The notes under the pieces: model-generated
Seen by the model: only the letters and a program-made list of their open reading frames with translations
Database searches by the model: none
Told to the model about the DNA's origin: nothing
Part shown: in pieces, positions 8,455 to 56,591 of the stretch
Numbering within the stretch: the stretch's first letter is position 1
How the letters are laid out: each line of letters begins with the position of its first letter
Position numbers and translations under genes: made by a program
Source of the DNA: Mytilus edulis
Lineage: Eukaryota
NCBI RefSeq assembly: GCF_963676685.1
Contig: NC_092352.1
Span: 31,248,001-31,312,000 of the forward strand
Length of the DNA: 64,000 nucleotides
Direction: 5' to 3'

Positions 8455-9570
8455 AACTCATGAAAGATGAGGTTTATAGGTTTGTTTGCCAGACACGCGT
8501 TTCATCTACATAAGATCTACCAGACAAGACACAAGAAGTAATCATTACATGTATTGACTTTTCTACTGTATTTTTTCTGACTTAAACCCATAGGAACAAA
8601 ACGTTCACCAGTAGTGTTTCGACATAGTGGTTGAAAAAAACCTCATCAAAGATACCAGGTTTATAGTTTAGTACGACAAACGTGTGTTTCGTCTACATAA
8701 TATTCATTATTGGCGCTTCAATAAAAATGGTTAGGGGCTAAATTCAACACCAAGATGGAAGCATGCATTAAAAAGTAAAGGTGACAGACAGTATTTTTCA
8801 AAATGTAGCGTAAGCATTCTTTGCCTGGTTTATAAAAGAGCTAAGTGTGAATAATTAAAAATTCAATAACAGTAATTTTTCATTAAATCGTATCAATGAT
8901 ATTTCATATCATGACAGAAGTATTGACTACTGAGAGTATGATACAATCGGGAACAAAACATTCACCAGAAGTTGCAATGAGCCACTGGTTGTAAATACCA
9001 TTCCATGATATGTATTTGACTTTTGTCCTCTTCATTTTTCTGACTACTATTTTTCGAAAAACTAAGGAATTTCGTATCCCAGGCATAGATTACCTTAGCC
9101 GTATTTGGCACAACCTTTTGGAATTTTGGATCCTCCCTCAATGCTCTTCAACTTTGTACTTGTTTGGCTTTATAAATATTTCGATATGAGCCTCCCTGAT
9201 GATTCTTATGTAGACGAAACGCGCGTCAGGCGTACTAAATTATAATCCTGGTACCTTTGATAACTAACTACGATGCAATACTGGTGAATGTTTGGTTATC
9301 ATCGGGAACAAAACGTTCACCAGTTGTACCTCGACTAGGTGGTTGTAAAAGTTCAGAAAAGCTATCAGGTTTATAGTTTGGTATGATAGACTTGTGTTTC
9401 GTCTACATAAGATTCATTAGTGGCGCTCGACTCAAAATAGTTTGAGTGAAAAGGGAGGGGGGATTCAACACGTAGTTGAAGAGCATGCATTAAAAACCAA
9501 AAGTTGCAGAAAATAGTTCGAAATATAACGTAGGCATTCTTTGACAGGGTTGAAAAAAAGCACATAGGCA
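8455..9570. mobile_element. Decayed retrozyme array (minus strand) with a younger plus-strand retrozyme fragment at about 9051..9268
   Basis: Degenerate GTTTCGTCTACATAAGA motifs near 8500, 8690 and 9400. Plus-strand CTGATGA...GACGAAACGCGCGTC at 9196..9227 with damaged stems. Confidence 0.75.
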
Positions 9571-19360: not shown

Positions 19361-20540
19361 TTACAACAGGCCGTATTACTGTCCCACTTTAGATAACGTT
19401 TTGTATTTTGTTGTTGTTACAACAGGCCGTATTACTGCCCCACTTTAGATCCCGTTTTGTATTTTGTTGTTGTTACAACAGGCCGTATTACTGCCCCACT
19501 TTAGATACCGTTTTGTATTTTGTTGTTGTTACAACAGGCCGTATTACTGTCCCACTTTAGATACCGTTTTGTATTTTTTTTTGTTACAACAGGCCGTATT
19601 ACTGTCCCATTTTAGAAGCCGTTTTGTATTTTTTTGTTGTTACAACAGGCCGTATTTCTGTCCCACTTTAGATGCCGTTTTGTTTTTTGTTGTTGTTACA
19701 ACAGGACGTATTACTGTCCCACTTTAGATACCGTTTTGTATTTTTTTGTTGTTACAACAGGCCGTATTACTGTCCCATTTTAGATGCCGTTTTGTATTTT
19801 GTTGTTGTTACAACAGGCCGTATTACTGTCCCATTTTAGATGCCGTTTTGTATTTTGTTGTTGTTACAACAGGCCGTATTACTATCCCACTTTAGATACC
19901 GTTTTGTATTTTTTTCTTGTTATAACAGGCCGTATTACTGTCCCACTTTAGATACCGTTTTGTATTTTTTTGTTGTTACAACAGGCCGTTTTACTGTCCC
20001 ACTTTAGATACCATTTTGTATTTTGTTGTTGTTACAACAGGCGGCCGTATTACTGTCCCACTTTAGATACCGTTTTGTATGTTTTTGTTGTTACAACAGA
20101 CCGTATCACTGTCCCACTTTAGATACCGTTTTGTATTTTGTTGTTGTTACAACAGGCCGTATTACTGTCCCACTTTAGATACCGTTTTGTATTTTTTTGT
20201 TGTTACAACAGGCCATATTACTGTCCCACTTTAGATACCGTTTTGTATTTTTTTGTTGTTACAACAGGCCATATTACTGTCCCACTTTAGATACCGTTTT
20301 GTATTTTTTTGTTGTTAAAACAGGCCGTATTGCTGTCCCACTTTAGATGCCGTTTTGTATTTTGTTGTTGTTACAACAGGCCGTATTACTGTCCCACTTT
20401 AGATACCGTTTTTTTTTTTTTTTGTTACAACAGGCCGTATTACTGTCCCACTTTAGATACCGTTTTGTATTTTTTTGTTGTTACAACAGGCCGTATTACT
20501 GTCCCATTTAAGATACCGTTTTGTATTTTTTTGTTGTTAC
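19361..20540. repeat. 56-bp minisatellite x about 21
   Basis: Unit TTACAACAGGCCGTATTACTGTCCCACTTTAGATACCGTTTTGTATTTTGTTGTTG. Confidence 0.95.
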
Positions 20541-24569: not shown

Positions 24570-25976
24570 TTATTCTGTTGTAACACCGGTTGTTCCCAAC
24601 AAGAGGGGTAAAATGTAATAGCCCGAAATTATAAGTGTTCCGGACATGAAAATAAGAAACAATGTTTTATCTACAGTTCTCCCGACAACTGACCATGTTA
24701 TCCCATATCGGCATTCCTCTTCCTCTTCATCGTCGTCGGATACTTCATCGACATATTCCATTGGTTGCACCATCGACTCATCATCGGTGACGACAGAAGC
24801 GCCACTAGATAAATCGCGTTTGACCTCCGTAATATCGTTCTCCGTCATTTCTTTGGTCAATGTCTGTTTACTTTCAGAACGCTTTCTACGTTTAGGGGGC
24901 ATGAACTTTGATTTGCGACACAAGCGACATGTCAACAAACCAAATATGTAAACTAAAATCCATGGCACTGGGGTATTGTCCTCTTCCTTTGCATAAATTC
25001 TTAGGGACAAAATTGTTACGAATGTTGTTAAACTGCTGATGGATAGCATAATCACAAGATAATATACCATATTAGACATAGGTTTGGATGTTTCTGGGAG
25101 ACTTTGCGATACGATTGTCAAATAAACAGCAAACGTGAGAAAAATATTCGTTGCAAATCCCATTCTTTCTCCTGCTGTCGGTGGAAGTACAAATGATAAA
25201 GAGTTAAGAACACCCAGAAGTACAATCGGAATTATCATGTTTATCATGAAATAAATAGGCCGTCTTTTCACAGTTATAGATAGTGAGAGGATGGATCGAT
25301 TTGATAGACTTGTTGTGTTTATGGTCGAAGACAACAGCTCCCATTCCTGATTTTCAACGAATTGGTCCGTACGAGCATATGTCGTCGTCGGTAGGAACTC
25401 TATCTCGTGACTCTGATATCCCCAAGGTGTGAACAATATTTCGCACGTCTGCTCGTCGAACGGAAAGTCAGTGGTATCAACCGTGCATCCAGTTTTGGTA
25501 ACGATACCAATATTTAAGTCCACTTGACCATTAGTTAGAGTCAATGTTGCATCATACCCTCCTTTTATAAGTGGTGTTAGGCTGGACACTGAATTAAACA
25601 CGGTGACCGGTGGTAGCCATATATCATCTGACTGAAGATCAATCTCCATCAGAAGATGAGTTTTAGGAAGATAATTAAGAACTATATACTCGTCCAACCA
25701 TCTTACTTTCATTTTCATAATTAATAATAATGTTCCCGCCACTTCGTCAAACTCCGGAAGTTGTATCAAGCTGAACTGCAAGTCCACATACAATGTTTCA
25801 TTATTCCAAAGCATAGGAAGCACATTTTTGTCGTAAGATTTTAGAAATAAAGCACTCATCAACTTTCTCACGTGTGAAGCAGTTGGTATTGTTTGTGAAG
25901 AACAGTTAGTGCAGTCTAACTGGATAGAACTGTGTATCAGTGCTAGTAAAAGTAGACATGTCGGTAAAGCAGCCAT
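24570..25976 (-). CDS. nAChR-like non-alpha subunit (gene 5), single-exon CDS
   Basis: Signal peptide; CTVDTTDFPFDEQTC; FTPWGY; AGERMGF; four TMs; acidic M3-M4 loop. Confidence 0.94.
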   Translation of the reverse strand: MAALPTCLLLLALIHSSIQLDCTNCSSQTIPTASHVRKLMSALFLKSYDKNVLPMLWNNETLYVDLQFSLIQLPEFDEVAGTLLLIMKMKVRWLDEYIVLNYLPKTHLLMEIDLQSDDIWLPPVTVFNSVSSLTPLIKGGYDATLTLTNGQVDLNIGIVTKTGCTVDTTDFPFDEQTCEILFTPWGYQSHEIEFLPTTTYARTDQFVENQEWELLSSTINTTSLSNRSILSLSITVKRRPIYFMINMIIPIVLLGVLNSLSFVLPPTAGERMGFATNIFLTFAVYLTIVSQSLPETSKPMSNMVYYLVIMLSISSLTTFVTILSLRIYAKEEDNTPVPWILVYIFGLLTCRLCRKSKFMPPKRRKRSESKQTLTKEMTENDITEVKRDLSSGASVVTDDESMVQPMEYVDEVSDDDEEEEECRYGITWSVVGRTVDKTLFLIFMSGTLIISGYYILPLLLGTTGVTTE

Positions 25977-27834
25977 GTTGTTTTTGTTTTAGCCTTAACT
26001 GAATTAACTGTACTTATAGAATGATATGTATAACATACACTATTTTGATAGAAATCACACTTCATTTAAATAGAACCATTTATTAAATGTCAATATAACA
26101 TTAACTCCTTGAAGATTAATTAAGATTCAACTGAAAAGATTGTGATAAAATTCTGTTAAAAGGAATGGATGCGTAAAATAATGAAATCACGATCGTGTCT
26201 TTTTGCTACATAACAAGGTGAAATGGTTCAACATTCAAGATAAATTATTAATCTTTAAAATCTTGTTCTTAATTTTTAAGGTAAAAATGTCATTTCAAAG
26301 AAGGAAAACAATGTGCCTCAAACCTTCTATGACTTGCAGCGTAAAATCCACATTTGGTTGTTCACACACTGAAAGGTCAAAAGTTACCAAATGGGCATCA
26401 AGTTTTGTTTCATGGTATGAGCCAAAACAACTAGAAATTAACGTAATGTAGCCTTAACAGTTAATTTGGAGTCGATTTATTGACGATAACAATTTTACGA
26501 TTGTTGCTGGCACAAGTAGCAAATTATCTTACAATCCTATAGGGTCAATTGTTTCAAGTAAAAAAATACATTGTTAAAAGAACAACAAGTTACACTGCAA
26601 CAAAATTCGCAGTGGCGGTAATTTACTTCTGATAAACCTTGTCGTTTCAATCCTATATGAGGCAAATGGTAGACTATAAATATAAAATATGAATATCTAC
26701 AAAAAAATCCTCAGTCGACTCCTAAAAGTTGATAAGCAAAATAAATCTACAACCAAGTTAATTTGATCAAAATTGACAATCGAGAGAAACAGTAATAGGG
26801 AAACTGAAAAATTAGATCAACGAATAAATCTGAAATTTTCATTCCAATAAAGGCAACAGTAGTATACCACTGTTCAAAAGTCATAAAGACTTGAGAAAAC
26901 AAACCCGGGTTACAAACTTAAACCGAGGGAAACATATCAACTATAAGAGGAAAACAACGAAACAACAGACACACTGAAGTGCAAAATAAACAAACGACAA
27001 TGCAATATCCATAGAAACGAACTCTTAGACAGCAAAGCAGAAAGAAAGAAAGTCATGCAAAACGGAGCAGCTACATGAGATTCTCGAAAAATTAAATTTA
27101 ATTATATTAGCGATGTAAGCTCTTTATCGTAAACTATAATAGATATAGAGAAATTGTAAACAGCTTTTATGATCAGTAAGATAAGATTCACAAATAGGTA
27201 GATATATCTGCATGATTCAAACCTAGCCACACTGTGGCGAGTGTCACTTAGTGTGTTACAGATTGTTGGCACAGTTACTAATGATTTTAATGTTGCATGT
27301 TTAATTAGTTTAGCGATTCAAGGCAAAATCTTTTGATCAATTTCATATTTTATCTAAGTTAATTCTATGAATAAAAGATCCTTCAAAGTATCGAGAGTGA
27401 AAAGCAGGTAATATAACATTGCCATGCGCACAATAAGAAAGAATTTTCAGGGCCAACTTTGCATTACATAGACTGCTGCAGGGAAATAAACCACTAGACA
27501 TCTAAGAAAAACATAGAATGGTGTACAGACGAACAAGCAAATCAGCAAACAATCAAACTAGTCTTTTTTTAAACCCTCATACATGATGCACAGGTTTAAG
27601 TTGAAGCCTGCCTCTAGGTGCCGGATTTTCCCGCTGAGTTTTTTTAATACTGAAAATGACAAGCATAGTCCAGTCTGATATAACTTATAAGGAAGATACC
27701 AACCAATTAATAAATGATGATTTTGTCAAAATAAGGTTTACAACCTTTAATACTTTGCAAACATATTAGTGTAGTCCTCCCATGAACAGAGAATTTTGAA
27801 TGAGGTTACCTCACAAGTCATAGCCATATCGTAA

Positions 27835-31187: not shown

Positions 31188-31760
31188 TGTTTCTCTAATG
31201 ATTTTCAAACAAAACGCAGGCAAAGTTATTCCTTCGTTGCGATTGATCTGCAAAAAGTCGTGTTCTTTCTATGTGACGTCATCAGGCATGGTCGCCTTTT
31301 TGCATGCCGTCACAATTGGAAATTCAGAGGAAAACAAGAAAATTCGACGTCATAATAGGATTTTAACCAATGAAGAACTGAGTTCAAATGAACCACACGT
31401 TGATAAAAAAAAAATTATACAATGGGTGCAGAAAGGAATAAATTGACGAAGAATTAGAGAAAAGATTATAAACAACGTCAGAACCTAGAATCTATACTTT
31501 AAGACCATAGTATATTATTTGAACAGATGATTCGGAATATTTTTCAGCAAGGTCTTGGTATCTTCCGATGAGTTTTTTTTTTTTAGAAAACGGACGTTCT
31601 TTGCACCATGTATCTTTCTATGAATAAAAGCTCTTGAATACCGAATGAGTTGGGAAATGTATATCCCATATGCAGTTGTAGTTGGTTTAAAGCTATTTAG
31701 GTGGGAAAATTGATTTTAAAAACATGAGTTATCAAAGGTACCAGGATTATAATTTATAGT

Positions 31761-31804
31761 ACGCCAGACGCGCGTTTCGTCTACATAAGACTCATCAGTG
31801 ACGC
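31761..31804 (-). ncRNA. Type I hammerhead ribozyme (copy 1)
   Basis: Minus strand GCGTCA-CTGATGA-GTCT tatgt AGAC-GAAAC gcgc GTC^TGGCGT: full catalytic core, stems I and II, minimal palindromic stem III. Confidence 0.9.
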
Positions 31805-32117
31805 TCATATCAAAATATTTATAAAACCAAACAAGTACAAAGTTGAAGAACATTGATGATCCAAAATTCCAAAAAGTTGTGCCAAATACATCTAAGGTAA
31901 TCTATGCCTGGGATAAGAAAATCCTTAGTTTTTCGAAAAATTCAAAGTTTTGTAAACAGGAAATTTATAAAAATGACCACATTATTGATATTCATGTCAA
32001 CACCGAAATGTTGACTACTGGGCTGGTGATACCCTCGGGGACGAAACGTCCACCAGCAGTGGCATCGACCCAGTGGTGTAAATAGTTATCAAAGGTACCA
32101 GGATTATAATTTATAGT

Positions 32118-32161
32118 ACGCCAGACGCGCGTTTCGTCTACATAAGACTCATCAGTGACGC
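32118..32161 (-). ncRNA. Type I hammerhead ribozyme (copy 2)
   Basis: Identical to copy 1. Confidence 0.9.
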
Positions 32162-32474
32162 TCATATCAAAATATTTATAAAACCAAACAAGTACAAAGT
32201 TGAAGAGCATTGGGGATCCAAAATTCCAAAAAGTTGTGCCAAATACATCTAAGGTAATCTATGCCTGGGATAAGAAAATCCTTAGTTTTTCGAAAAATTC
32301 AAAGTTTTGTAAACAGGAAATTTATAAAAATGACCACATTATTGATATTCATGTCAACACCGAAATGTTGACTACTGGGCTGGTGATACCCTCGGGGACG
32401 AAACGTCCACCAGCAGTGGCATCGACCCAGTGGTGTAAATAGTTATCAAAGGTACCAGGATTATAATTTATAGT

Positions 32475-32518
32475 ACGCCAGACGCGCGTTTCGTCTACAT
32501 AAGACTCATCGGTGACGC
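32475..32518 (-). ncRNA. Type I hammerhead ribozyme (copy 3, U4C core variant)
   Basis: Core reads CCGATGA because of a substitution at 32511. Confidence 0.8.
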
Positions 32519-32831
32519 TCATATCAAAATATTTATAAAACCAAACAAGTACAAAGTTGAAGAGCATTGGGGATCCAAAATTCCAAAAAGTTGTGCCAAA
32601 TACATCTAAGGTAATCTATGCCTGGGATAAGAAAATCCTTAGTTTTTCGAAAAATTCAAAGTTTTGTAAACAGGAAATTTATAAAAATGACCACATTATT
32701 GATATTCATGTCAACACCGAAATGTTGACTACTGGGCTGGTGATACCCTCGGGGACGAAACGTCCACCAGCAGTGGCATCGACCCAGTGGTGTAAATAGT
32801 TATCAAAGGTACCAGGATTATAATTTATAGT

Positions 32832-32875
32832 ACGCCAGACGCGCGTTTCGTCTACATAAGACTCATCAGTGACGC
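32832..32875 (-). ncRNA. Type I hammerhead ribozyme (copy 4)
   Basis: Identical to copy 1. Confidence 0.9.
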
Positions 32876-33377
32876 TCATATCGTCTCTTTTGTCCTAGAC
32901 TTTGGTAGCGCTTAACGTCAAATTCGAGTTTTTAAGTCTAAAAATGATACAGAGGAAGCCGTGTCTGTTGTTTTTTAATTTTTAGTTCTGGTGGATATAT
33001 TTATGAAACCAATCAGAAAAGTTTGGATTGTTAATGGAAAGAACATCATCAATATATCTAACTGTGAAGTTAAATGATCTGGTTTCTTTGGTTTTCTTGT
33101 TTTTTGACAAATGTCTGAAGGGATTCCGACTCATAAGAAAATAAGACGAAGTTGACAAGAAGAGGCTGATAGTTTGTTCCCAAAGGAATGCAGACAATTT
33201 GTTGAAAAAGTCTTACTTCAAATTCCACAAATATGTTGTCAATTAGAAACTTCAGCATACTGATCATTTGCTCCTCTGTAGCATGTTTTTGTTCACTATT
33301 AACAAAATATCCCGTTTGGTATTTCAAAGTTATAAAATTATACCGTATGCTACCATTTGTATGTTGAAACGTAACTG

Positions 33378-33800
33378 TAAACCAAGAGTTCCAAGGTGAA
33401 GTTGAAGTCATCCCTTCTATTTTACTTGCGCCACCACGAGTTGGTTGACCGTTATGGAATATTCGTTAGACAGATGATATCGCATATGTTCCTTATGTCA
33501 TATCTACAATCCCGTTCCCTCCTACCGATTGCGATCTTCCGAATTAAACTATTTACCGAGTTTGTTATAACATAGCAACACGACAGATGCCACATGTGGA
33601 GCAGGATCTGCTTGACCTTCCGGAGCACCTAGGATCTACCCCAGTTTTGGTTGGCTTCGTGTTGTTTAGTCTTTAGTTTTCTTTGTTGTGTTTTGTTTGC
33701 TATTGTTTTCTGTTTGTCCTTTTATTTTTTGGCCATGGCGTTGTCGGTTTGTTTTCGATTTCAGAGCTTGACTGTTCCTTTGGTATCTTTCGGTCCTCTT
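33378..33800 (+). mobile_element. Penelope-like element 3' end remnant
   Basis: KLKSSL...RHHELVDRYG followed by the same tail as 4629..5078. Confidence 0.7.
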
Positions 33801-34469
33801 TTTGCATTCTCTTGACAGTTGTTGAGTAATCTTGAAACAATGTTAAAAAAAGGAGGAGATGCCGTGGGTACTTCGCAACCAACAAGGAAAATTGTAGTCT
33901 ATATCATACTATACAGAAAACTTAAAATTGAGTCCAAAACCTGTGGTTAACTCAGATATTCCGTTTCTGCTCACCTAGTGTCATCTGTCCTGATGCTCAT
34001 GAAAAGGAAAGTTTCAGTGATATTATATTGAAATTATCAGTTTCCATTCAAAATGGGGGACAAATGGGACACGACAAGAGTAAAATATGTTTGTAATTGT
34101 TAGGAATGTTTTGTAACCTCTTGGTGTGACCTTTTAGTGTTTATCTTTGATTACCTTGTTATGTTATATTACTGATTTTAACGTTTACCTCATATCTGTT
34201 TTTAAAAATTATCAACTTAACATTTGCATACATAATCAACAACTACTTAATATGTAAATGATTTTAATCAATTATTGAGTTACTGTACATACATTTTCGT
34301 TGTTAATATCTTTATGAAATAAGCAAACCCCTTTCGCTCATATAAATACAAGTTTTAATAGATCTATAAACAATAAGACCATGTGGTATGATTTACAATC
34401 AGACAACACTCCACTAGAGACAATATGACATAGAAGTTATCAACTATATGCCACACTATAAGATTAATA

Positions 34470-35921
34470 TCAAGTATTCATTTGTTCCAAAAGTGGAACC
34501 AAGAATACGACGCATACAATGGCGTTTAGTCCTATGAAAACCAAGAAGAAAAGCATATCTAAAGTAGAAGCAACGAGTTTCCAATCTACTCCCCATTTAC
34601 GGTTATGTTCTTCGTCCGAATCAGTTGTCACTATACTCCTGGTGTCAAGTTTCCCTCGCTTTTGTAATTCGAAATTGACTGGGTATTCTGGGTCCTCAAA
34701 TTCATCCTCGCTACAAATTCTACAATTTAAGCAGCCTATTAAATTAGATAGCCAATTTGGAACCATTTTTTTCTCGTCTTTATGGAAAATTCTAAGCGTG
34801 AAGATAGTCACAAACGCAGTTCCAGCACTAATGGCAACCATACACATTAGAAAATAGCACAACGTAGACATAGGATCGGATGTTTTCGGTAAGTTATCAG
34901 AAATCATTGTAAGATACACGGCAAATGTCAGGAATGCGGTTACAGAATAACCGATTCGTTCTCCAGAATTCCCTGGCAACAAAAATACAAGAGTACTAAT
35001 TACAGCTAGTATCAAAATAGGAGTAACAAGATTTACTACAAAATATAAAGGACGTCGCGTAAATTTTAATTTCACAAGGATAAAAGATGAACCATCAATT
35101 TCTTCGACTTCGATAGCCGTACTATCCAAAGTCCACTCCATATTATCTTGATAGTCAGTTAAATTAACTTCCGGTTCCAAAGCGTTGAACTTGACCTCTG
35201 TGCTTGGATGTCCAAACGATATAAACCTCACTACGCACTCTTGTGAGTCGAAAGGGAAATGGGTTACGTCGATTAAGCAGGCGGACTTCGAATTTATACC
35301 TGGTTTCCACGTAACTAGTGGTACCTCTTTGATAATAGTTTTTGTAATAGTTCCTTCATTACTGTCATTTTTAACACAAGTTGTGTAGCCCATCTGAACA
35401 CGAACGTGATATGTAGAATCTGCGATCGGTATAATAGCTTTTACCGAGTTAAATACAGATACAGGCGGTTTCCAAACATAATTCTCTGGAATAAGAAATT
35501 TGGTAAGACTTCCGTGATCAACCTCATCAAATGAATCGTCGACAAGTTCATCATTCCACAGCAGAGTAAGAAATCCTACGATCTCTAAAGTTCCAGCGAC
35601 TTCGTTGAAATCTATGACTTGTAAAAGATCGAATGACATATTTACCTGAACAACAGACAAATCTGCTCTCGGTGGAACCAGCGTGTTGTAGGAAGCTCTA
35701 CTTCCGGTGAATGTCGTAGACAAAAAACTTTCGAACTGTGTTTTAGAAACTAAATTCGCATTAGGAGTACACACTTCTGTGCAGTTAACGTTTTTATTAC
35801 ACGGTACCGCATTAACAGGTTGTGTTGTGCAGATAAAGTTTTTATTACACGGTACCGCATTAACATGTTGATGTCCGAAAAAGCAGAAAGTTATAACACA
35901 TATTTTCTTTAACAACTCCAT
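34470..35921 (-). CDS. nAChR-like non-alpha subunit (gene 6) with a Cys-rich N-terminal extension, single-exon CDS
   Basis: CLIDVTHFPFDSQEC; NSGERIGYSVTAFL; four TMs; 16-aa N-terminal duplication. Confidence 0.94.
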   Translation of the reverse strand: MELLKKICVITFCFFGHQHVNAVPCNKNFICTTQPVNAVPCNKNVNCTEVCTPNANLVSKTQFESFLSTTFTGSRASYNTLVPPRADLSVVQVNMSFDLLQVIDFNEVAGTLEIVGFLTLLWNDELVDDSFDEVDHGSLTKFLIPENYVWKPPVSVFNSVKAIIPIADSTYHVRVQMGYTTCVKNDSNEGTITKTIIKEVPLVTWKPGINSKSACLIDVTHFPFDSQECVVRFISFGHPSTEVKFNALEPEVNLTDYQDNMEWTLDSTAIEVEEIDGSSFILVKLKFTRRPLYFVVNLVTPILILAVISTLVFLLPGNSGERIGYSVTAFLTFAVYLTMISDNLPKTSDPMSTLCYFLMCMVAISAGTAFVTIFTLRIFHKDEKKMVPNWLSNLIGCLNCRICSEDEFEDPEYPVNFELQKRGKLDTRSIVTTDSDEEHNRKWGVDWKLVASTLDMLFFLVFIGLNAIVCVVFLVPLLEQMNT

Positions 35922-36343
35922 GATGTTTGTACAATTCCGTTTTCCTTATATGATTTAAGAACGAACCGTTCCATGTGAACAGATTTGGCATCAAAATAAT
36001 GATGTGTGATTAAATCGAAGTTTAAATACTTCAAAAGACAAGAGGTCGACACCGTTAAACATACTGATATTTCATATTTAATTAATTAGATAGAACTTTA
36101 GTCGTACATATGATATAGAACTCAATCAGGACATCATGAATAAGTTTTCAACTTTAAAATTTGAAGTGCAAATGTTTGTATTGTAATATTCGGAAGTCCT
36201 AAAGGGGGACACTTCATTGTTCCCTGTCCGTAAGCACGATTAAATAGTCCGATATCTCAATTAAGTAATTAGTTAATTATCTCGAGTTTTTCATCGTTAT
36301 CTCGATTTTAATAATTCTTATCTCGATATATGTAGTCGTTATC

Positions 36344-38425
36344 CGGTCTCTAAAAACACCGCAAAGGACCTCCTTTGTGCACAAAGGAGCACAAAGGACC
36401 ACAAAGGAGCTTCATAAGAGCACAAAGGACCTGAAATTGTTTATTAAATGGGGGGAAAGGCATTTCTCACGAAAAAAACATTTCAGAATAGCCAACATAT
36501 AGCCGTTATTGAGTATACAGGTTCATGTCCAACTACCAACACAACACATGGTAATGCCAAACACGTCTCACATGAGTTTATACGTACAGACCCTTCAGTA
36601 ATGAATCGTATAACCGAGGGACTCAATAATAAGAAATCCTGCATCGAAATATATCAGGACATGGTACTTTAAGACCCTGATAACGCACCGAAATATCTTC
36701 AACAAGTCCATACAAAAAAACATTACAACAAAAAACAGGTTTCTCATGCTGCCAAAGCCAATATAGCCGATGAAGTGCTACAAATTTTGTCAATGGTAAA
36801 TGATCATGACTTTGTGAAAGAGGTTGTATATACACAGGATAACAGTAAGCCACCATCCATCATATGCTACACGTCTGAGCAGATAGCTGACATAAAAACA
36901 CACTTGCAAGCTGATCCTAGTACAGTCCTTGGTGTTGACAGAACTTTCAATTTAGGTTCAGTTTTTGTGACAAACTTTGTTTATAAAAACAAAAAGGTCA
37001 TTTCGAAGTCAACCCGTGACCATCCAATATTCATTGTGCCAGTGTTTTTCCATTGGGACGGTTCCATGGAGACTTACCACACTTTCTTTTCACACTTCAA
37101 AGCTCGGATACTAACGGAGGTGCAATGTTTCGACGTCAAACTTGGTAGCGACGATGAAGGTGGTTTGAGAGTTGCATTAGACAGCGTTTTTTCAAAGCCG
37201 GACAGATTACTCTGCACAAAGCACATAAAAGACAATGTGACAGATTACATTAAAAACAAGCTGCCTCTAACATCTAATCAAAGATCGCAGATTATGTCCA
37301 ACATTTTTAACGATAATGGCATAGCAACAGCTGATGACACCATAGATTTCGATATCAAATCCAATGAACTTTGTAATAGCTTTCCATGTTTTGCCAATTA
37401 TTTTGAGATAAGACTTAAAACCCGCTTGTTCAATTATGTCAATCAACCCTTTCGCAAATATGATTCTAACAGACTCTGGACAAACAATAACTGTGAGTCC
37501 ATGAACCACCGGTTTAAGGTAGCACTGAACTGGAAACCACATCAATTACCAGAACTTTTAGACAAAATCTACAATGTTATACAACTTCACCACACAGATT
37601 TAAAACGCAGTATAGTTGGAAACGGCAATTATGAACTTTTCGGAAATTTCAAGAAACACAGAATTCAACATTCCAAATGGCACAGTCTTTCCCAAATTGA
37701 AAAAGAAGTGCTTTACCGAAAGCTTGCCAGTGATAAAAAGTTTAGTGACAATATGTTAAGAGCAGCAAATGGTTTTGCAATACCAAAAGTTAAACGTCTC
37801 GCCAAGAAGCCTGGTCAACGTCACCGACCAAGAACAGCTGCAGTGAGGACAAAGCCAAAATTTTAAATGTTATTGTTAAATCATATGTATTTATTTATCA
37901 TGTTTATTTAATCTTAATAAATCATAATTGAAAATATAAAGTTTTGACTTTTTTGTTATAATGCAAGTATTCTTACTTCACTTAAAAAAATAATACGTAT
38001 AAAGAAAACAAAGTGATGATATATGAGACCAAAAAACAACCAACAACACATTGCTATCCTATATAATTTTCGAAGTTTTGGTAACGGCATACCCTTGAAA
38101 AATTACAACAATAAGATACCAAGATTAATAATTGACGTTTTTATCAGTTATATTACATTTTTACTATTTAAAAATTCACATACATGAACTATCTCTTAAC
38201 CCGGATATAAAGTCGGTTCCAAACCGATACCGGTGAAAACTACAAATCGTACATTATTAAAATCGCAATTTTTATTGAAATTGTTTTGTTTTTTTTTACA
38301 TTTTTTTTCATGACTTATAATATTTTTATGTTTTAAAATGAATTTCAGGTCCTTTGTGCTCTTATGAAGCTCCTTTGTGGTCCTTTGTGCACAAAGGAGG
38401 TCCTTTGCGGTGTTTTTAGAGACCC
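36344..38425 (+). mobile_element. Mutator-like (MULE) DNA transposon, defective
   Basis: About 85-95 bp TIRs (GGTCTCTAAAAACACCGCAAAGGACC...); 9-bp TSD GTCGTTATC at 36335..36343 and 38426..38434; internal transposase. Confidence 0.92.
36448..37866 (+). pseudogene. MULE DDE transposase with one in-frame stop (TAA 36670..36672), probably 5'-deleted
   Basis: ORFs 36448..36672 and 36775..37866 share a frame and the gap between them is open. Motifs VDRTFNLG, GSDDE, LLCTKH (CxxH) and TNNNCESMN. Confidence 0.85.
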
Positions 38426-42602: not shown

Positions 42603-44009
42603 TCAGACATATCCCCCTTCCTTCAACATTGGATTCAAAAATACGTATGCAAGGTATGAATGGACAGCTATCGTTGCAAGGAACAGTAAATAATCAAAAG
42701 CCCGCGAAACTGTTACCCAGGTCATTTCTTCTGGAACCCTACAAAACCAGCAACGTTCTGAGCATGTCAACTTCTTTGTATACGGTGGTGGTTCTTCGAT
42801 TTCTTCACGTTTCTTCCATTTGTCCCATTTTACATTTGAGACCCCAAACTTGTGTTCTTGTGGTAGGTAGTAGACATCAAATTTTCGTTTTTTATCTGCA
42901 AAGTCATATGACGAAATAGATATACCATCTGGGTGAATCGTTGCTTTCTTTTCCCGCTTACATCTGCATACCATGCAACACATTGTACCAACTATGAACG
43001 CTACAACAGACGGTACTTTAAGGTCAACAGTCTTAAGATGTTGTCTGACAGTAAAAATAGAAATTATTGTTATTACACCACTAAAGGCCATTAAAATCAC
43101 GATATACAGTGACAAGGTAGACAGCGGATTAGATGTTCTAGGAAGATTATCACCAATAATTGTCAGAAAAACTGAGAATGTTAAATAAACAGTCATAGAA
43201 AAACCTACTCTACCATGATCTATTGGCATGAGGAATGCAAATCCATTTATGATTCCCAATAACAAAATAGGTGCAGCTAAAACTATTACAAAATACGTAG
43301 AACGACGCTTTAAGTGAATAGTAAACGACACATAGGTAGCTTTGCTTGTTGACTTAGTGCTTACTGTTGTAGTATTCATATCCCAGACAATGTTTTGAGC
43401 GAAGTCTGTCGTGTCAAGACTTGTAGAAGTAGTGGAAAGTGCTAATTCTTCCGGTGAATAATCAAGGTGCGACATATCAAATGAACATGTCTGTGAATCA
43501 AACGGAAAAAGTTCGATATTCACATCACAACCAGCCTTAATGATAAAAGCAGGCTTCCAGGTATGGGTGCCGTCAAATCTCACGTCAATTAGATCATTGT
43601 TAGTCCCAACGACGGAAAGCTGATCAACGCCATTGTACGTGTATATCGGTGGATACCAAAGATCAGACCGGGGTATTTTTGCTGTAGTGATGACATCTAT
43701 AACTCCCACTGGTTTTTCGGTCCATGTTAGAATTTCACTTTTCCAGGAAATTATGAAATTACCCACTAAGGTTATTGTTCCATCCCTATCAGAGAATTCT
43801 TGTATGTTGTCAAGTTTCATTGAAATACTCACATTAAGCTGGTCGGACTGGTTGTTCATAGGGAAACTAAGTTTGTTATAATCAGCAAATATCTTATTGT
43901 AAAAGAACTGCCAGTCTGATGCTAAAGTAACTCCGTTTGCAGTTTGGAAACATAACAAAAAGATGAAAAATCCTCCAAAGTTGAACGGTGATAATTTCTT
44001 GTCCGCCAT
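42603..44009 (-). CDS. nAChR-like non-alpha subunit (gene 7), single-exon CDS
   Basis: CDVNIELFPFDSQTC; four TMs; M1-M2 linker PIDHGRVGF without the -1' Glu. Confidence 0.93.
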   Translation of the reverse strand: MADKKLSPFNFGGFFIFLLCFQTANGVTLASDWQFFYNKIFADYNKLSFPMNNQSDQLNVSISMKLDNIQEFSDRDGTITLVGNFIISWKSEILTWTEKPVGVIDVITTAKIPRSDLWYPPIYTYNGVDQLSVVGTNNDLIDVRFDGTHTWKPAFIIKAGCDVNIELFPFDSQTCSFDMSHLDYSPEELALSTTSTSLDTTDFAQNIVWDMNTTTVSTKSTSKATYVSFTIHLKRRSTYFVIVLAAPILLLGIINGFAFLMPIDHGRVGFSMTVYLTFSVFLTIIGDNLPRTSNPLSTLSLYIVILMAFSGVITIISIFTVRQHLKTVDLKVPSVVAFIVGTMCCMVCRCKREKKATIHPDGISISSYDFADKKRKFDVYYLPQEHKFGVSNVKWDKWKKREEIEEPPPYTKKLTCSERCWFCRVPEEMTWVTVSRAFDYLLFLATIAVHSYLAYVFLNPMLKEGGYV

Positions 44010-44392
44010 GTTGATGTATAATTAAAACATTTGGCAAAACATCTCTTGTTATAGTTGAACTCCATATCTGATCAGGTGTAATTATTTGTAATCAACTCGA
44101 AAACAAAAGATTTATTTAAATGATGTTTTTGAATAACAATACAACAAATGTATTAGTTTTAATTCAGCATTTTAAAGTTGTTCATCATATTAAAGCTGTG
44201 CATGTATGTTAAACATAGAGCCGGGTGATATAATTTCGTTAGCAGAATAGAAGGTTTAATGATTAAACGAAAGACATTATTTGATGTTTGTCATTTCACC
44301 TTTTTTTATTTGATCCATAATAAAAACAAGTATAGGCACACCCAGTGCTTCAATCTTTTGACTAGACATAAACTTGAATTATATTTTATTAC

Positions 44393-49732: not shown

Positions 49733-50278
49733 GGAAAAGACACTCTTACACCACAGTTATAAACTGTAATACAAGATGGAAAAGACACTCTTACACCACA
49801 GTTATAAACTGTAATACAAGATGGAAAAGACACTCTTACACCACAGTTATAAACTGTAATGCAAGATGGAAAAGACACTCTTACACCACAGTTATAAACT
49901 GTAATACAAGATGGAAAAGACACTCTTACACCACAGTTATAAACTGTAATACAAGATGGAAAAGACACTCTTACACCACAGTTATAAACTGTAATACAAG
50001 ATGGAAAAGACACTCTTACACCACAGTTATAAACTGTAATACAAGATGGAAAAGACACTCCTACACCACAGTTATAAACTGTAATACAAGATGGAAAAGA
50101 CACTCTTACACCACAGTTATAAACTGTAATACAAGATGGAAAAGACACTCTTACACCACAGTTATAAACTGTAATACAAGATGGAAAAGACACTCTTACA
50201 CCACAGTTATAAACTGTAATACAAGATGGAAAAGACACTCTTACACCACAGTTATAAACTGTAATACAAGATGGAAAA
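49733..50278. repeat. 45-bp minisatellite x12, nearly homogeneous
   Basis: Unit GGAAAAGACACTCTTACACCACAGTTATAAACTGTAATACAAGAT. Confidence 0.95.
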
Positions 50279-51054: not shown

Positions 51055-53407
51055 CACGGTCGACACTCGGCTAACCGAGAGATTGGTCGGTTAATCTATA
51101 TTGAGTATGCGGCTATATGGGCGATTGGTCTGTTAATCGGGTTGGCTATACGTCTGTTAAGAGTAAAACGCACAATTTAATGTTAAACTCTATCAAATAT
51201 ACAGATTTTTGGCATATTATAAGAATCAAATCAAAAAAAGAAAAGTGTCTGACAAAAGGATATCTATCATAGAACATTTTCCACCTTTAAAAACATTTCA
51301 TAGTCTGCGCAGTTTTCGGCAAAAGTAAAAGGCGTCGCGCAAGTATGTAGTATTTATGATTACACGCATAGCAATTTTTTTTAATAAAAGGCGAAACAAA
51401 CAATTTTAGATATCATTTAAAAGACACAAAATACTACTTTGGTTCTTAAATATAATTGACATTAGTAAATATTTCATAATTGTAATATAACGTGAGTAAT
51501 ACCACGTTTTAGTGAAAATTATGGCAATAAAGTCTGTTAATGGGTTGGACAATTGAAATTGTGTCAGTTAAGAGTTATTTAGCCACGAAAATAGTTTTGC
51601 TACCTTTATGAAAAAGTTAAGAATGGGATGTTCTTGAGTAAAAGCATTTTTATTTTGACTTTCTTTGCATTTTATTGAAGAGTGTGTCACTTCAATATAG
51701 CGTGATCTGGGTTGTTCGCTGGAATATGCATGAATTTATTATTAACGATTTCAATCGGCCTTAATTTTTGTGTCTGCTCAAAGTAGCATGTTCTCAAATT
51801 CGACTGAACGTGTTATTCTAATACAACACAGGGTACAGTATAACGTGTTGTCGTTCTCATATGCACATGATATTTGTCACTGGACGTTTAACCCTAATTC
51901 GTCAGCATCATCCATTTAGTTCTTTTCTTCTATTACTTGATCATCTGTTGTTTACAAATAATTATAAAAAAAGTAAATGGAAAGGAGCGAATGCAGCTAC
52001 ATTTGGTTGTATTAAGTTTTAATTCATTTTATTCCGTTTAGTTCCTTTTCTACATATGTGCAGAGGAGAACTGCAGTTGTCCACATGTAAACTTCAAGCA
52101 TTTGTCACCAATATGAGTACATCGCAATCCGTTACTGTTTCAACACCCAGGGGGTTTCATGTCTTCAACAATTATTTTTTCTCTCTCTCTTTTTTAGCAA
52201 TGCATCACATGGATTCGAGCGTCACTGATGAGTCTTTTGAAGACGAAACGCGCGTCTGGCGTATATACTAAATTTAGTCCTGGTATCTATGATGAGTTTA
52301 TTCTCTACTTATCTTTTATTTATATTCTGTATCTCCATCCAGATTCTCGTGTATACCATGAGGGTCCGGATTGGGGGTGTTGATTATTTCTGTATTCTTT
52401 AAATTGTTATGTTACTTTTCTCTACATTTTATTTATCTTACTCATTATTTTTTCTCTATTCTTTATGTTTAGGCATTCCAATATATTTTACTTACTGATG
52501 TTTAGTTACATTACGACTTTAATACTGGTTACCAATGTAGATGACAAATTTGTGTCATTCATGACAATTAAACAGAATCCACATGATATATGCGACCATT
52601 CTCGGATAAAATCAAATTTACTTTAATTTAACACTTTTTTGAAACCATTTTTATCAATTTTCAATATCCATTGCCTAAATTGTTAATTATTGTTCATGTG
52701 TTTTGTTTCCGTATATTTTATATTCCATTGCTCATGTTTTGTTTCCGTATATATTTTATGTTCCATTGCTCAAGTGTTGTTTCCGTATATTTTAGCCGCT
52801 CGTCTTGAGCCTACCAAATTAACACACCATAAAGTAATAAAATTATACTTTTATTGTCATTCATAACTCTTAACAGACCAATTAACAGACCGGGTTTTAT
52901 ACATCCGACCCATTAACAGACCAGGTTTTAAATAAAGATTGATTTATGTCACCAAAATACAGATTTACGTGTAGATTTTTCACACAATGATATCAATTTG
53001 GTTAACACACATAATGCCTGTCTTTTTTCGATGTTTAAAATATTGCATGCAAGTAAATTCAACCAAAGTGTCATTTTGTGTACATTTTGTGTGTGTAAAA
53101 TGTGTATAAATTTATTGATGAGTAACTTGCCTTTTTATTTTATAGATCGTACATAGAAGCTAGAAAAATAATAATTACACCACTGAATTCAGTACATTGA
53201 ATAGTTTTGTTAGACATAAATATTTTTTATGATAAAAATATATTTAAAAGGTAATACAATAAAACATGCTGAGTTTTCAATGATTTTCTCGATAACACCT
53301 GATTAACAGACTTTAGCCAACCCGATTAACAGACCAACCGCCGATATAGCCGCATACTCAATATAGATTAACCGACCAATCCCTCGGTTAGCCGAGTGTC
53401 GGCCGTG
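51055..53407. mobile_element. Non-autonomous DNA transposon with CAC...GTG termini and a 5-bp TSD (Transib-like; Chapaev/CMC not excluded)
   Basis: About 95-bp TIRs (CACGGYCGACACTCGGCTAACCGAG...); TTAAT at 51050..51054 and 53408..53412; internal TTAACAGAC repeats. Confidence 0.85.
52219..52262 (+). ncRNA. Solo type I hammerhead ribozyme (retrozyme fragment, about 52212..52300)
   Basis: GCGTCA-CTGATGA-GTCTT ttg AAGAC-GAAAC gcgc GTC^TGGCGT; intact core with a different stem II loop. Confidence 0.85.
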
Positions 53408-53546: not shown

Positions 53547-54881
53547 TCAGTTTGAAATAAAGTTTTCCTTTGCAAGATTGATCCAAGGATACATGAACAT
53601 GAGATACACACAGAAATTAAGAAAAAGAAATAAAAATAAGTAGAAAATGTCCATAGTCGATCCAACGGTTTTCCACTTTATTCGTGGAACTTTCTTCTCC
53701 TTTTCAATATCATCTTCCCCATCATCGTCTCTCCTGCGTTTGACTTTCACTTCCTTGACAAATGCCGATGCTGCTTGAAGTTTGAATCGTTTATTTAGAA
53801 TTCCATATCCCGACGGTGGTTTCCAGTCGCCGAGTGTTTTACCTCGACATGGGAAACACCACAACAATGAAACAAAACATGACAAGCATCCAGATACTTT
53901 AGACTTGCCATGTCGATGATAGATATGTAACGTAGACGATATATACGATAGAAGCATGATGTTCGTCAAAAACTGCCAATCAAGAAAATAAACTACAACC
54001 GGGATAGGAGATGTAGTTTTAGGTATTTCATCCGTGACAAGGTTTAAAACTATGGCAACAACAAGTGTTCCCGTAACGATATATCTTACTCTTGCTTGAT
54101 CGTATGGAATCATGAATGCAAGAATACTCATCACACCCGTTAGAAGGACCGGAACAATAAAATACATAGCAAAGAACGCCCCTCGACGCTGGATCTTTAT
54201 AGTATATTCCACTTTTGAGTACAATCCTAGAACATATGATGAAGAGGTTGACATAATATTCCAAGAAGGGTTTATAGCATACTGAGTGAGATCTATCGTG
54301 GCGTTCTCGACAGACGGATAAAGTGTGATCATTTCGCTTGTTATTTGCCAAGGTAAAAAGGATATAACACATTCGTGTGTATCAAAAGGATAGTATGTAG
54401 CATCCACTGAACAATATACTTCGAAATCAAAGTTAGTTTTATAGTAAATACTCCCGTCAGGTTTCAATACCACAGGCGTTGACGTATGACCAACACGAAC
54501 TAGGTCCTCCACCGAATTTGTCATGATAATGATAGGCATATAAACATCATCTTGTGATAAAGTGATATTTATAAGTGTTATTCCAGCATCTGTCAGAGGT
54601 TCTAGTATTAATTCATCCGTCCATTCCATTTCAATGAATCCCATTAATTCCAACACTGCAGCCTCTTCGTAGTATTCCTTGATTGCTGTTAAACCGAGGT
54701 TTATTGTAACCTGTAGTGGATCGTCCTGGATTAGTTTGGGACGTACTGCTGTATCATACTTTGTTTTAACTGCTGGTGGCTGGATAATGTCATCCAAAAA
54801 AGTCCCCACGTTCGTTGCAGTGTTTCCATAAATAACTGGTAAAATTCCAAATGCTATAAAGAAGATAAACTTATATTCCAT
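53547..54881 (-). CDS. Divergent nAChR-like non-alpha subunit (gene 8), single-exon CDS
   Basis: CSVDATYYPFDTHEC; four TMs; M1-M2 PYDQARVRY. Confidence 0.92.
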   Translation of the reverse strand: MEYKFIFFIAFGILPVIYGNTATNVGTFLDDIIQPPAVKTKYDTAVRPKLIQDDPLQVTINLGLTAIKEYYEEAAVLELMGFIEMEWTDELILEPLTDAGITLINITLSQDDVYMPIIIMTNSVEDLVRVGHTSTPVVLKPDGSIYYKTNFDFEVYCSVDATYYPFDTHECVISFLPWQITSEMITLYPSVENATIDLTQYAINPSWNIMSTSSSYVLGLYSKVEYTIKIQRRGAFFAMYFIVPVLLTGVMSILAFMIPYDQARVRYIVTGTLVVAIVLNLVTDEIPKTTSPIPVVVYFLDWQFLTNIMLLSYISSTLHIYHRHGKSKVSGCLSCFVSLLWCFPCRGKTLGDWKPPSGYGILNKRFKLQAASAFVKEVKVKRRRDDDGEDDIEKEKKVPRIKWKTVGSTMDIFYLFLFLFLNFCVYLMFMYPWINLAKENFISN

Positions 54882-55208
54882 TTTGAAATCTGCCTGAGAA
54901 GTGGAATTGAGTTCCTACTTGTAAATTTGTTCTGTTTTGATATTAAAACGACATTTAAAAACAAATACAATTTAAAAAATAGTAATGGCATGATCGCCTT
55001 AGAAAATCACAGTTCCATGTTAATAATTATCTAAACAACAAGTTTGCTCAAACACAATAACTTTCAATAGAATAGTATACAAAGTTAATTTACTAAATAA
55101 AATAAAACAATAAAGACATACCAAAGTCAGAAAATATGGTAACTTTATGATGTTCAATTAAATTGGATAGTTTTAATTCTTATTTTAACGTTTTAAACTT
55201 AATAGGAA

Positions 55209-56591
55209 ATGAAGTCTTCATTTGTTTTTACTGTGATTCTAGCAATGACCAAGTTTTCATTATTCAAGACACAGACGGAGTATCATGATAAATTCAGAAC
55301 CTACTTATCAGACGTGATTGAGAAAGAATCTGTACATGATGCAAGGATACGCCCGATGACAGATCAAGCAAACGCCGTAGATATTTCTGTGGAATTTCAG
55401 ATCATATCCATTAGTAAGCTTGATACCTTCTCCGGTTCCATGGATTTCGCTGGTAGATTAAAAATGAAATGGACAAGCGAAGAAGAAATAGTGCGTCCTG
55501 ATGAACAGAGAAACTGGTTGGACTTTGATGCAAGACTTGTGGAACAAGATAGTATCTGGACACCTGACATCACTGTTTATAACTCAATGGGCGAGCGGAA
55601 GCGACTTGGCGATTCGTCATTTCGTATTCAAATAGACATGGACGGTAGATGTGAATGGCTATTGGGAGTCGTTGATTCCACTTCTTGTACGTTTGATGTC
55701 ACTTTATTTCCGTTCGACAAACCAATCTGTAACATCGTGTTCACTACATGGAAATACAAAGCTGCCGAAGTTCTATTATCTGCTCTCAATGATAGTGTCG
55801 ATATGTCATTATACAATGAAAATAGTGAATGGACGATAGTTAATACTACCTCAAATCTAACAATTCAAAACGAGGTTTCATATCTAAACTATACGATTTA
55901 CTTTAAACGTGAAGCTGGGTTTGTTTTAGTGAATATGATTCTTCCCGTAATAGTAGTTTCCTTGCTAAATGCATTAGTATTTTTAGTTCCTGCAGAATCA
56001 GGAGAACGGTTAACTTATGCCGTTTTATTGTTTTTATGGTTTGCTGTTTATCTTGATATCATTTCCACAAACTTGCCTATATCGTCTGATAATATGTCCA
56101 ATTTATCTCTATTCGTCATTTCGATGGTTGGGTTAAGTATTTTAACGATATTTTTAGATGTTATTAGTGTAATGTTGTACAATCGCGATGACAAAAAACA
56201 AGTGCCTTGGTGTATTGAAGGTTTTGTTCGATGTTTACGCTGTCGGTGTGGTGGTAGTAATCGTAATCGAATTATTCCTTTCGAAGACGTTGAATCATTT
56301 GATCAGAACGGTGACACACAGATGCTAAACGGAAAAGCGCCGACGACTGTAGCGCTTGGCACGAAAAGTAATAACAAAGTAGAATTAAGACTGAGAGACT
56401 TTGAAATGCCGAGGGATGATTTAAAAAGAAAAGAAAACATTGAAAATGAACCTAGGAAGAGAAAATCAGATGAAGTTGATTGGAAAGTCGTATCTGTTAC
56501 ATTTGATTATATATGTTTTATATTAACCCTGCTTTGTACTTTAGGACTTTGTGGTTACTTTCTTGTTCCTTTAGTAACTGCAAATTCATAG
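55209..56591 (+). CDS. nAChR-like non-alpha subunit (gene 9)
   Basis: WTPDITVYN; CTFDVTLFPFDKPIC; PAESGERLTY; four TMs. Confidence 0.94.
   Translation: MKSSFVFTVILAMTKFSLFKTQTEYHDKFRTYLSDVIEKESVHDARIRPMTDQANAVDISVEFQIISISKLDTFSGSMDFAGRLKMKWTSEEEIVRPDEQRNWLDFDARLVEQDSIWTPDITVYNSMGERKRLGDSSFRIQIDMDGRCEWLLGVVDSTSCTFDVTLFPFDKPICNIVFTTWKYKAAEVLLSALNDSVDMSLYNENSEWTIVNTTSNLTIQNEVSYLNYTIYFKREAGFVLVNMILPVIVVSLLNALVFLVPAESGERLTYAVLLFLWFAVYLDIISTNLPISSDNMSNLSLFVISMVGLSILTIFLDVISVMLYNRDDKKQVPWCIEGFVRCLRCRCGGSNRNRIIPFEDVESFDQNGDTQMLNGKAPTTVALGTKSNNKVELRLRDFEMPRDDLKRKENIENEPRKRKSDEVDWKVVSVTFDYICFILTLLCTLGLCGYFLVPLVTANS

What the first reader, a model, noticed from the sequence alone, without database searches (positions are those of the whole stretch)
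31727..32882. Young retrozyme array with four hammerheads, predicting a 357-nt circular RNA
Seen: 3.2 near-identical units that begin and end around a hammerhead. Minus-strand GUC cleavage sites at 31767, 32124, 32481 and 32838 are exactly 357 nt apart. Stem III is only AC-gcgc-GT, but ACGCGCGT is self-complementary. Known: such minimal type I hammerheads cleave as dimers and define non-LTR retrozymes, which produce abundant circRNAs in several animals including mussels. Inference: the array is a product of rolling reverse transcription of a circle. A B-box-like GGGTCGATGCC lies about 50 nt downstream of each cut.
Basis: partly seen in the sequence, partly recalled or inferred. Interest (0 to 1): 0.7.

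Follow-up and report, generated by a model that had tools for sequence, protein, structure and literature searches.

The report
Mussel retrozyme carrying Naiad's start hairpin
This is a young copy of an already described ribozyme-bearing mussel repeat; copies of its family nearly all end at one fixed point just before an RNA hairpin shared with Naiad jumping genes, which likely identifies the enzyme that copies these probably circular RNAs into the genome.

Summary
The array is real: 3.2 units of 357 nt, with hammerhead cut sites at the stated places. It belongs to the mussel non-LTR retrozymes described in 2020 (PMC7229834); 15,687 intact cores occur genome-wide. Corrections: the hammerhead at 32475-32518 has a core mutation; the motif is the classical invertebrate type, reported to cleave as a monomer, not a 'minimal' one; the 'B-box' follows only 3 of 4 cuts. 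Family RNA is abundant, hammerhead-sense and continuous across the cut, but nothing ties it to this locus and circularity is untested. Family copies end 40-50 nt past the cut (36 of 37), with scattered 5' ends. Just beyond that end lies a hairpin 53/61 identical to the start of an intact Naiad Penelope-like element, in register and with compensatory pairs. Naiad reverse transcriptase likely binds it, primes internally and rolls round the circle. I found no paper stating this link. This scan noted it earlier on other DNA of this genome. The array sits in a dead Naiad, which is chance-level.

The parts
31727..32882 (-). Retrozyme array, family A: 45-nt 5' stub, three 357-nt units (cut to cut), 40-nt 3' tail
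32832..32875 (-). Type I hammerhead 1 (cut after 32838), intact core
32475..32518 (-). Type I hammerhead 2 (cut after 32481), core U4-to-C change at 32511; likely weakened (effect recalled, not tested)
32118..32161 (-). Type I hammerhead 3 (cut after 32124), intact core; stem I 6 bp with two G-U pairs, stem II 4 bp, stem III 2 bp
31761..31804 (-). Type I hammerhead 4 (cut after 31767), intact core
32729..32791 (-).
   Evidence: 87% over 63 nt to the Naiad start; fold
32372..32434 (-). Naiad-shared hairpin, copy 2
32015..32077 (-). Naiad-shared hairpin, copy 3
31727..31766 (-). 3' tail ending at the family's fixed 3' end, the inferred start point of reverse transcription
32880..33369 (-). Dead Naiad RT fragment upstream of the array (ends ...DKRDD; GAT is shared with the array's 5' end)
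   Evidence: 83% DNA identity to intact Naiad L101; translation with X at stops
31462..31722 (-). Continuation of the same dead Naiad ORF downstream of the array (FKINFP...YGIYISQLIRYSRA)
33378..33802 (+). Inverted 3' end of a second Naiad family (called P here), the closest match to the retrozyme's tail and hairpin

Best explanation
The array is a recent insertion of a mussel non-LTR retrozyme, likely written into the genome by the reverse transcriptase of a Naiad Penelope-like element that recognises a hairpin the two share. Shown: the repeat, the hammerheads, the family's fixed 3' end about 43 nt past the cut, the hairpin just beyond that end, its homology and register with the Naiad start, and hammerhead-sense family RNA that runs across the cut. 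Published for a mussel clone, not this copy: self-cleavage and circles (PMC7229834). Inferred: multimeric transcripts are cut to monomers and closed by a host ligase; Naiad protein binds the hairpin, nicks AT-rich DNA and starts cDNA just 5' of the hairpin; it copies back through the ligated cut site and round the circle until it stops at a random point. Because the hairpin lies beyond the start point, only a circular or tandem template returns it to the genome; a cleaved linear monomer would give at most about 43 nt. Here about 3.2 turns, or about 2.2 turns plus one later local duplication, landed in a dead Naiad.
For: 3' ends at +40 to +50 in 36 of 37 loci chosen by full-unit match, 5' ends uniform (KS p=0.99); 23 of 30 loci chosen by hammerhead end at +37 to +52; 22 of 28 position-ordered loci end at +40 to +50. 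Intact cores outnumber hairpin cores 15,687 to 5,596, as 3'-first copying predicts. A prediction held: searching for Naiad P's 3' end followed by GTCGA gave 170 matches (control 0), and 13 of the 20 fetched continue into the retrozyme-like hairpin. Unit positions 24-133 align to the P junction in register with the fixed end: score 106 against a maximum of 46 in 300 shuffles; the rest of the unit has no homology; the hairpin is 53/61 identical with the same predicted fold. 7 of 23 pairs change on both sides across 8 sequences. The hairpin core opens published Naiad consensuses from bivalves and hemichordates (supplement of PMC8557442). P has an intact 1000-aa ORF in 3370-nt tandem units. Target profile: (TA)4 within 30 nt of the 3' end in 2 of 82 retrozyme, 0 of 37 Naiad and 30 of 36 Neptune-type ends (two Neptune tallies overlap). 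Internal RT initiation upstream of a protein-binding region is shown in vitro for another PLE (PMC11167929). All 12 multi-unit arrays have non-majority variants shared by all their units. RNA: 0.02-0.13% of reads in 4 runs, stranded to the hammerhead strand in the 3 stranded runs, no pile of ends at the cut.
Against: No trans-mobilisation was tested; shared sequence shows descent or a shared signal, not which enzyme acts today. The segment could be Naiad's internal promoter: other PLEs have one across this boundary. Short reads cannot tell circles from uncleaved multimers, and in the anole PLE the uncleaved RNA was the main substrate. In this array units 2 and 3 share a rare allele where the 3'-most unit has the family-majority base (31856), which pure single-circle copying does not predict; L047 also shows nested shared variants, so local duplication occurs. 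One Neptune-type PLE also ends about 45 nt past its hammerhead-like motif (read by eye). The covariation control does not correct for relatedness, 3 of the 8 rows are near-identical, and the pair-count measure was reached by 26 of 500 shuffles. The predicted circle hides the hammerhead (stem probabilities 0.05 or less). This locus is not seen in RNA: 1 of 218 reads carry its 31850 allele.
Confidence: 0.72

Rival explanations
1. Same Naiad enzyme, but the template is an uncleaved linear multimer transcribed from older arrays, and circles are a by-product.
For: Hammerhead cleavage was not needed for the anole PLE in vitro. Reads across the cut fit multimers as well as circles. Some arrays have nested variants (L047).
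Against: Circles made up most retrozyme RNA in mussel northerns. In the 9-unit array L042 all 19 variable columns are singletons and 7 variants are shared by all units, 4 of them seen in no other locus.
Confidence: 0.12
2. The shared segment is Naiad's internal promoter (or a Pol III box) captured by descent, and another enzyme, such as a hammerhead-bearing Neptune PLE or a LINE, does the copying.
For: PLE promoters span the pLTR-body boundary. Young hammerhead-bearing Neptune-type PLEs are present. Retrozymes in Xenopus resemble pLTRs of PLEs (bioRxiv 10.64898/2026.07.22.740005).
Against: The 3' end sits in register with Naiad's own 3' end. Paired positions co-vary. Neptune ends abut TA repeats and retrozyme ends do not. 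Five of six Neptune loci score 19-30 against the hairpin; the sixth hit lies in the flank, outside the element. No poly(A) tail or duplicated target was seen. No A-box, and 7 U-runs in the unit.
Confidence: 0.1
3. This array is mainly local satellite growth: a short insertion expanded in place by unequal exchange.
For: Units 2 and 3 differ by 1 base but differ from the 3'-most unit by 3-4, and share a rare allele. The 2026 preprint favours local amplification.
Against: It cannot explain the fixed 3' and random 5' ends across loci; elements longer than one unit are common and dispersed.
Confidence: 0.06

Closest known systems
Mytilus galloprovincialis non-LTR retrozymes (Cervera and de la Pena 2020, PMC7229834; parts 1-4 of 6 read, supplement not readable)
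   Same: Type I hammerhead in each repeat, unit within the reported 350-390 nt, thousands of copies, two related ribozyme families, low GC, no long ORF, abundant RNA.
   Different: The paper names PLEs only as a candidate helper because they share hammerheads. The parts read report no fixed 3' end and no Naiad hairpin. Identity with the deposited circRNA clones was not checked.
Naiad Penelope-like elements (PMC8557442; section 6, passages and supplement searches seen), incl. Naiad_Mgal
   Same: Shared junction segment in register, fixed 3' end, 5' truncation, partial tandems, non-microsatellite AT-rich targets in this genome.
   Different: Naiads are 3.4-4.6 kb, encode endonuclease and RT, and have no hammerhead (none found in two families). 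The retrozyme shares about 110 nt and adds a hammerhead.
Xenopus retrozymes as non-autonomous PLE sequences (bioRxiv 10.64898/2026.07.22.740005; parts 1-3 of 5 read)
   Same: Retrozyme-PLE terminal homology and the helper model.
   Different: No molluscs sampled, no Naiad link, no RT start site or hairpin.
Anole Poseidon PLE with internal RT initiation (PMC11167929; parts 1-2 of 4 read)
   Same: cDNA starts inside the RNA downstream of the hammerhead cut; AT-rich target; no reads ending at the cut.
   Different: An autonomous linear element of another clade; start sites lie about 85 nt or more past its cut, not about 43.

Membership tests
Non-LTR retrozyme | Type I hammerhead in each tandem unit | tested here: met
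   4 Rfam hits 357 apart, just under the gathering score; 3 of 4 cores intact
Non-LTR retrozyme | Short (150-450 bp), low-GC tandem unit without a long ORF | tested here: met
   357 nt; GC 0.38 in the 2-kb bin; longest open stretch 88 aa
Non-LTR retrozyme | Dispersed multi-copy family | tested here: met
   137 matches among 40 scored of 3,249 candidates; 15,687 exact cores
Non-LTR retrozyme | Expressed in the hammerhead sense | tested here: met
   Family level only; this locus not detected in the one run checked
Non-LTR retrozyme | RNA is circular and self-cleaves | not testable with these tools
   Reads run head to tail and across the cut but cannot tell circle from multimer; shown for a mussel clone in PMC7229834
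Non-LTR retrozyme | Sequence match to the deposited mussel circRNA clones | not tested
   Supplement unreadable; the GenBank clones are not held here
Minimal (PLE-type) hammerhead | Helix III absent | tested here: not met
   2-bp helix III with tetraloop and 4-bp helix II; definition from PMC7761336
Non-autonomous partner of Naiad | Shares the autonomous element's terminal cis-sequence in register with the insertion end | tested here: met
Non-autonomous partner of Naiad | Intact autonomous copy in the genome and a similar target profile | tested here: met
   1000-aa ORF; TA-repeat counts (a coarse test)
Non-autonomous partner of Naiad | Mobilised in trans by Naiad protein | not testable with these tools
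   Needs an in vitro or cell assay
Pol III (tRNA-type) SINE | A-box plus B-box, no internal U-runs | tested here: not met
   No strict B-box, no A-box on the RNA strand, 7 runs of 4 or more U (box consensuses recalled)

The most novel reading that the evidence does not exclude
Mussel retrozymes are circular RNA parasites built from two modules: a hammerhead that makes the circle, and the 5' hairpin of the hammerhead-less Naiad clade that loads its reverse transcriptase. The hairpin is a clade-wide RT start signal that is left behind at initiation, so circularisation is the shortest way to regenerate it. A 60-nt RNA tag might then direct target-primed rolling insertion of any small circle.
Probability: 0.5. 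Interest if true: 0.7.

Novelty: new member of a known kind. Interest (0 to 1): 0.48.

Why it matters
The array itself is one of thousands of copies of a described family. The gain is mechanistic: which enzyme mobilises animal retrozymes, and how a circle is primed, are open in the papers read. The data name a specific intact partner, a start point and a 60-nt structured signal, all testable in the published in vitro PLE assay. The partner is the PLE clade without hammerheads, against the published argument from shared ribozymes. The hairpin would also be a first candidate cis-element for Naiad mobility.

Tried and rejected
Targeting of Naiad DNA: the array sits in a dead Naiad, but 10 of 76 retrozyme 3' flanks are Naiad-like against 8 of 76 control windows (library of three Naiad elements), so I treat it as chance. 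Target-site duplication: none at this locus and none consistent in 39 loci. 5' ends piling at the cut site: not seen (two 5' ends were reset by eye from +1 to -5 and -7). Neptune-type hammerhead PLEs as partner: rejected on TA targeting and absent homology; the GIY-YIG search scored 150 of 858 candidates, so other PLE families may be missed. A first whole-element alignment to Naiad_Mgal-type copies was only weakly significant (3-11 of 200 shuffles); the anchored test gave 0 of 2000 and family P was clear unanchored. The tail motif is not shared with the Naiad_Mgal-type 3' end beyond a loose resemblance. Whole-monomer folding is no better than shuffles (z -0.29). Empty allele in other animals: contigs of three runs were too fragmented to decide; one 105-nt contig covers the 3' junction with only 27 nt inside. 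The look-up of sequencing runs listed no RNA holder; the RNA evidence comes from laying raw reads of same-species runs. One pile of read starts at 31907 was absent at the looser setting at the equivalent place 32264 and was set aside. Family B end counts (second table) are biased by the query and are not used as evidence. The supplement of PMC7229834 and of the bioRxiv preprint could not be seen and may bear on prior description of element ends.

Full report
Observation. The window holds a tandem array at 31727-32882 with period 357 and 99% matches. Rfam Hammerhead_1 matches four times on the minus strand, just under the gathering score, and the cut sites are at 31767, 32124, 32481 and 32838. 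The hammerhead at 32475-32518 carries a U4-to-C change in the core. The three full units differ pairwise by 1, 3 and 4 bases. The motif has a 6-bp stem I, 4-bp stem II and 2-bp stem III with a self-complementary loop. By the definition in PMC7761336 (passages) it is a classical invertebrate type I motif, not a minimal one.

Family. The genome is 1.37 Gb with 14 large contigs; a Mytilus mussel is inferred from the match of its Naiad elements to Naiad_Mgal and Naiad_Mcor. The unit gave 3,249 candidates, 40 scored. The exact hammerhead core occurs 15,687 times with 0 in the control. A second family, with a 367-nt unit 81% identical, has a solo copy at 52212-52302. This fits the two mussel retrozyme families of PMC7229834 (350-390 bp; self-cleavage about 0.1/min; circles by northern; parts 1-4 of 6 read; supplement unreadable). 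Of 70 full units from 36 loci, 49 are 355 nt and 7 are 357.

RNA. Four RNA runs of the same species label (two studies) were laid on one unit at 90% likeness: 5,590 of 8.71 million, 6,270 of 8.25 million, 9,520 of 7.34 million and 2,949 of 12.73 million records. In three runs the first mate lies mostly on +, so the RNA is the hammerhead strand; the fourth looks unstranded. Depth continues across the cut with no pile of ends, and head-to-tail joints of 357 nt are common (1,557 against 81 by strand in X23). At the family's fixed end, 865 reads in X23 continue into the next unit while 329 run into unrelated sequence; in the genome only 2 of 30 hammerhead-picked copies clearly continue. This fits circles or uncleaved multimers and cannot separate them. 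This locus is not visibly expressed in X23: 1 of 218 reads carry its allele at 31850, 4 of 192 lack the common base at 31857, and the flank has depth 0-5. The animal may simply lack the locus.

Polarity. Among 39 loci, two were dropped (one cut by the fetch, one duplicate), as was a second fragment in L005; 36 of the remaining 37 end 40-50 nt past the cut, and their 5' ends are uniform over the unit. These loci were chosen for a full unit, which does not constrain the 3' end. Of 30 loci picked by the hammerhead model, 23 end at +37 to +52 (one of them resumes after a deletion), 2 continue and 5 stop earlier. Of 28 position-ordered loci picked by the hairpin pattern, 22 end at +40 to +50. Tail-only insertions of about 29 nt with the same end also exist. 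No consistent target duplication was found. A fixed 3' end inside the RNA with a random 5' end is what internal initiation of target-primed reverse transcription gives, as shown for an anole PLE (PMC11167929, parts 1-2 of 4). A cleaved linear monomer primed at +43 could yield only 43 nt, so longer copies need RNA that is continuous across the cut (inference).

Partner. The array interrupts a dead Naiad RT frame on the same strand. Intact relatives have an N-terminal GIY-YIG domain, CxC and DKA motifs. Retrozyme flanks are not enriched for Naiad DNA (10 of 76 against 8 of 76), so the site is likely chance. I first noticed that the retrozyme tail resembles the 3' end of a second Naiad family, P. 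Earlier notes of this scan then pointed to a hairpin beyond the fixed end, which I tested. Against Naiad_Mgal-type starts the anchored score was 42-46, reached by 0 of 2000 shuffles. A pattern built from P's 3' end followed by GTCGA found 170 places; 13 of 20 fetched continue into the hairpin, and one locus holds an intact 1000-aa ORF in 3370-nt tandem units. Unit positions 24-133 align to this junction in register with both elements' fixed ends (score 106, shuffle maximum 46 of 300; the remainder of the unit scores below chance). The hairpin is 53/61 identical and folds the same way. Across 8 sequences 91% of cells pair and 7 of 23 pairs change on both sides (relatedness is not corrected). 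In the supplement of PMC8557442, 9 of 10 CCCCGAGG hits lie in this motif at Naiad starts or tandem junctions from oysters, mussels, a clam and a hemichordate. The main text has no 'hairpin' or 'stem-loop'. Hammerhead-bearing Neptune-type PLEs are young here too, but 30 of 36 of their ends abut TA repeats, against 2 of 82 retrozyme and 0 of 37 Naiad ends.

It misses the strict consensus (recalled), has no A-box, and the unit has 7 U-runs of 4 or more. A Naiad internal promoter in the same segment is not excluded.

How this array formed. All 12 multi-unit arrays have non-majority variants shared by all their units; mean divergence is 2.2% within and 3.7% between loci, and the 9-unit array L042 is star-like. 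That fits repeated copying of one template. Against a pure single event here, units 2 and 3 share a rare allele where the 3'-most unit has the majority base, so one later duplication or conversion is plausible. Where transcription of this copy would start is unknown; a Cys-loop receptor gene ends 1.6 kb upstream on the same strand, so read-through is possible but untested.

Comparison and verdict. The element is a member of a described family; circularity and cleavage rest on the published mussel clone. A general PLE link is proposed in PMC7229834 and supported for Xenopus in a 2026 preprint (parts 1-3 of 5), which has no mollusc and no Naiad link. Searches for Naiad with retrozyme, non-autonomous, hairpin, bivalve or ribozyme returned no paper stating it (listings only, open-licence library). 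The scan's earlier notes reached the same reading on other loci of this genome; they are not independent support. Confidence that this is a mussel retrozyme: about 0.95. Confidence in the full Naiad-primed, circle-templated mechanism: 0.72. Interest 0.48.

Noticed in passing
window 546-61000 (e.g. 24570-25988, 34470-35945, 42603-44021, 53547-54914, 55206-56591, 59666-61000): Cluster of about a dozen long ORFs that look like Cys-loop (nicotinic-receptor-like) ion channel genes, many apparently single-exon; two were confirmed by Pfam.
   Followed up: partly
window 52212-52302 (+): Solo 5'-truncated copy of the second retrozyme family: intact hammerhead plus 46-nt tail ending at the fixed point.
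   Followed up: yes
window 8493-9560 and 5140-5184: Several older retrozyme pieces on both strands, including a 218-nt family A copy at 9049-9266 with a damaged core.
   Followed up: partly
L294:4480-4950 (G000:C5 near 48.17 Mb); also L072: A third, diverged repeat of about 352 nt with a variant hammerhead-like motif and the same hairpin about 45 nt after the predicted cut, with its own compensatory pairs.
   Followed up: partly
L103 and L112, Naiad 3' UTR: A retrozyme tail of about 29 nt is inserted in the 3' UTR of two young Naiad copies and absent from L113, so it appears to have been carried along by an active Naiad sub-lineage.
   Followed up: partly
L211, L215, L217, L219, L220, L222: At least five young Neptune-type PLE families with C-terminal GIY-YIG and variant hammerhead-like motifs; most end in TA repeats, several with two alternative 3' ends.
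   Followed up: partly
L042 and L043 (G000:C7 28.20 and 28.27 Mb): A 9-unit array duplicated with its flanks in inverted orientation about 70 kb apart.
   Followed up: no
window 36673-37866 (+): 397-aa ORF with a weak Mutator-family transposase match (E 5e-5).
   Followed up: no
window 19361-20540, 49733-50278, 63532-64000: Other tandem arrays (56-nt x 21, 45-nt x 12 at 99%, 31-nt x 15) with no Rfam match.
   Followed up: no
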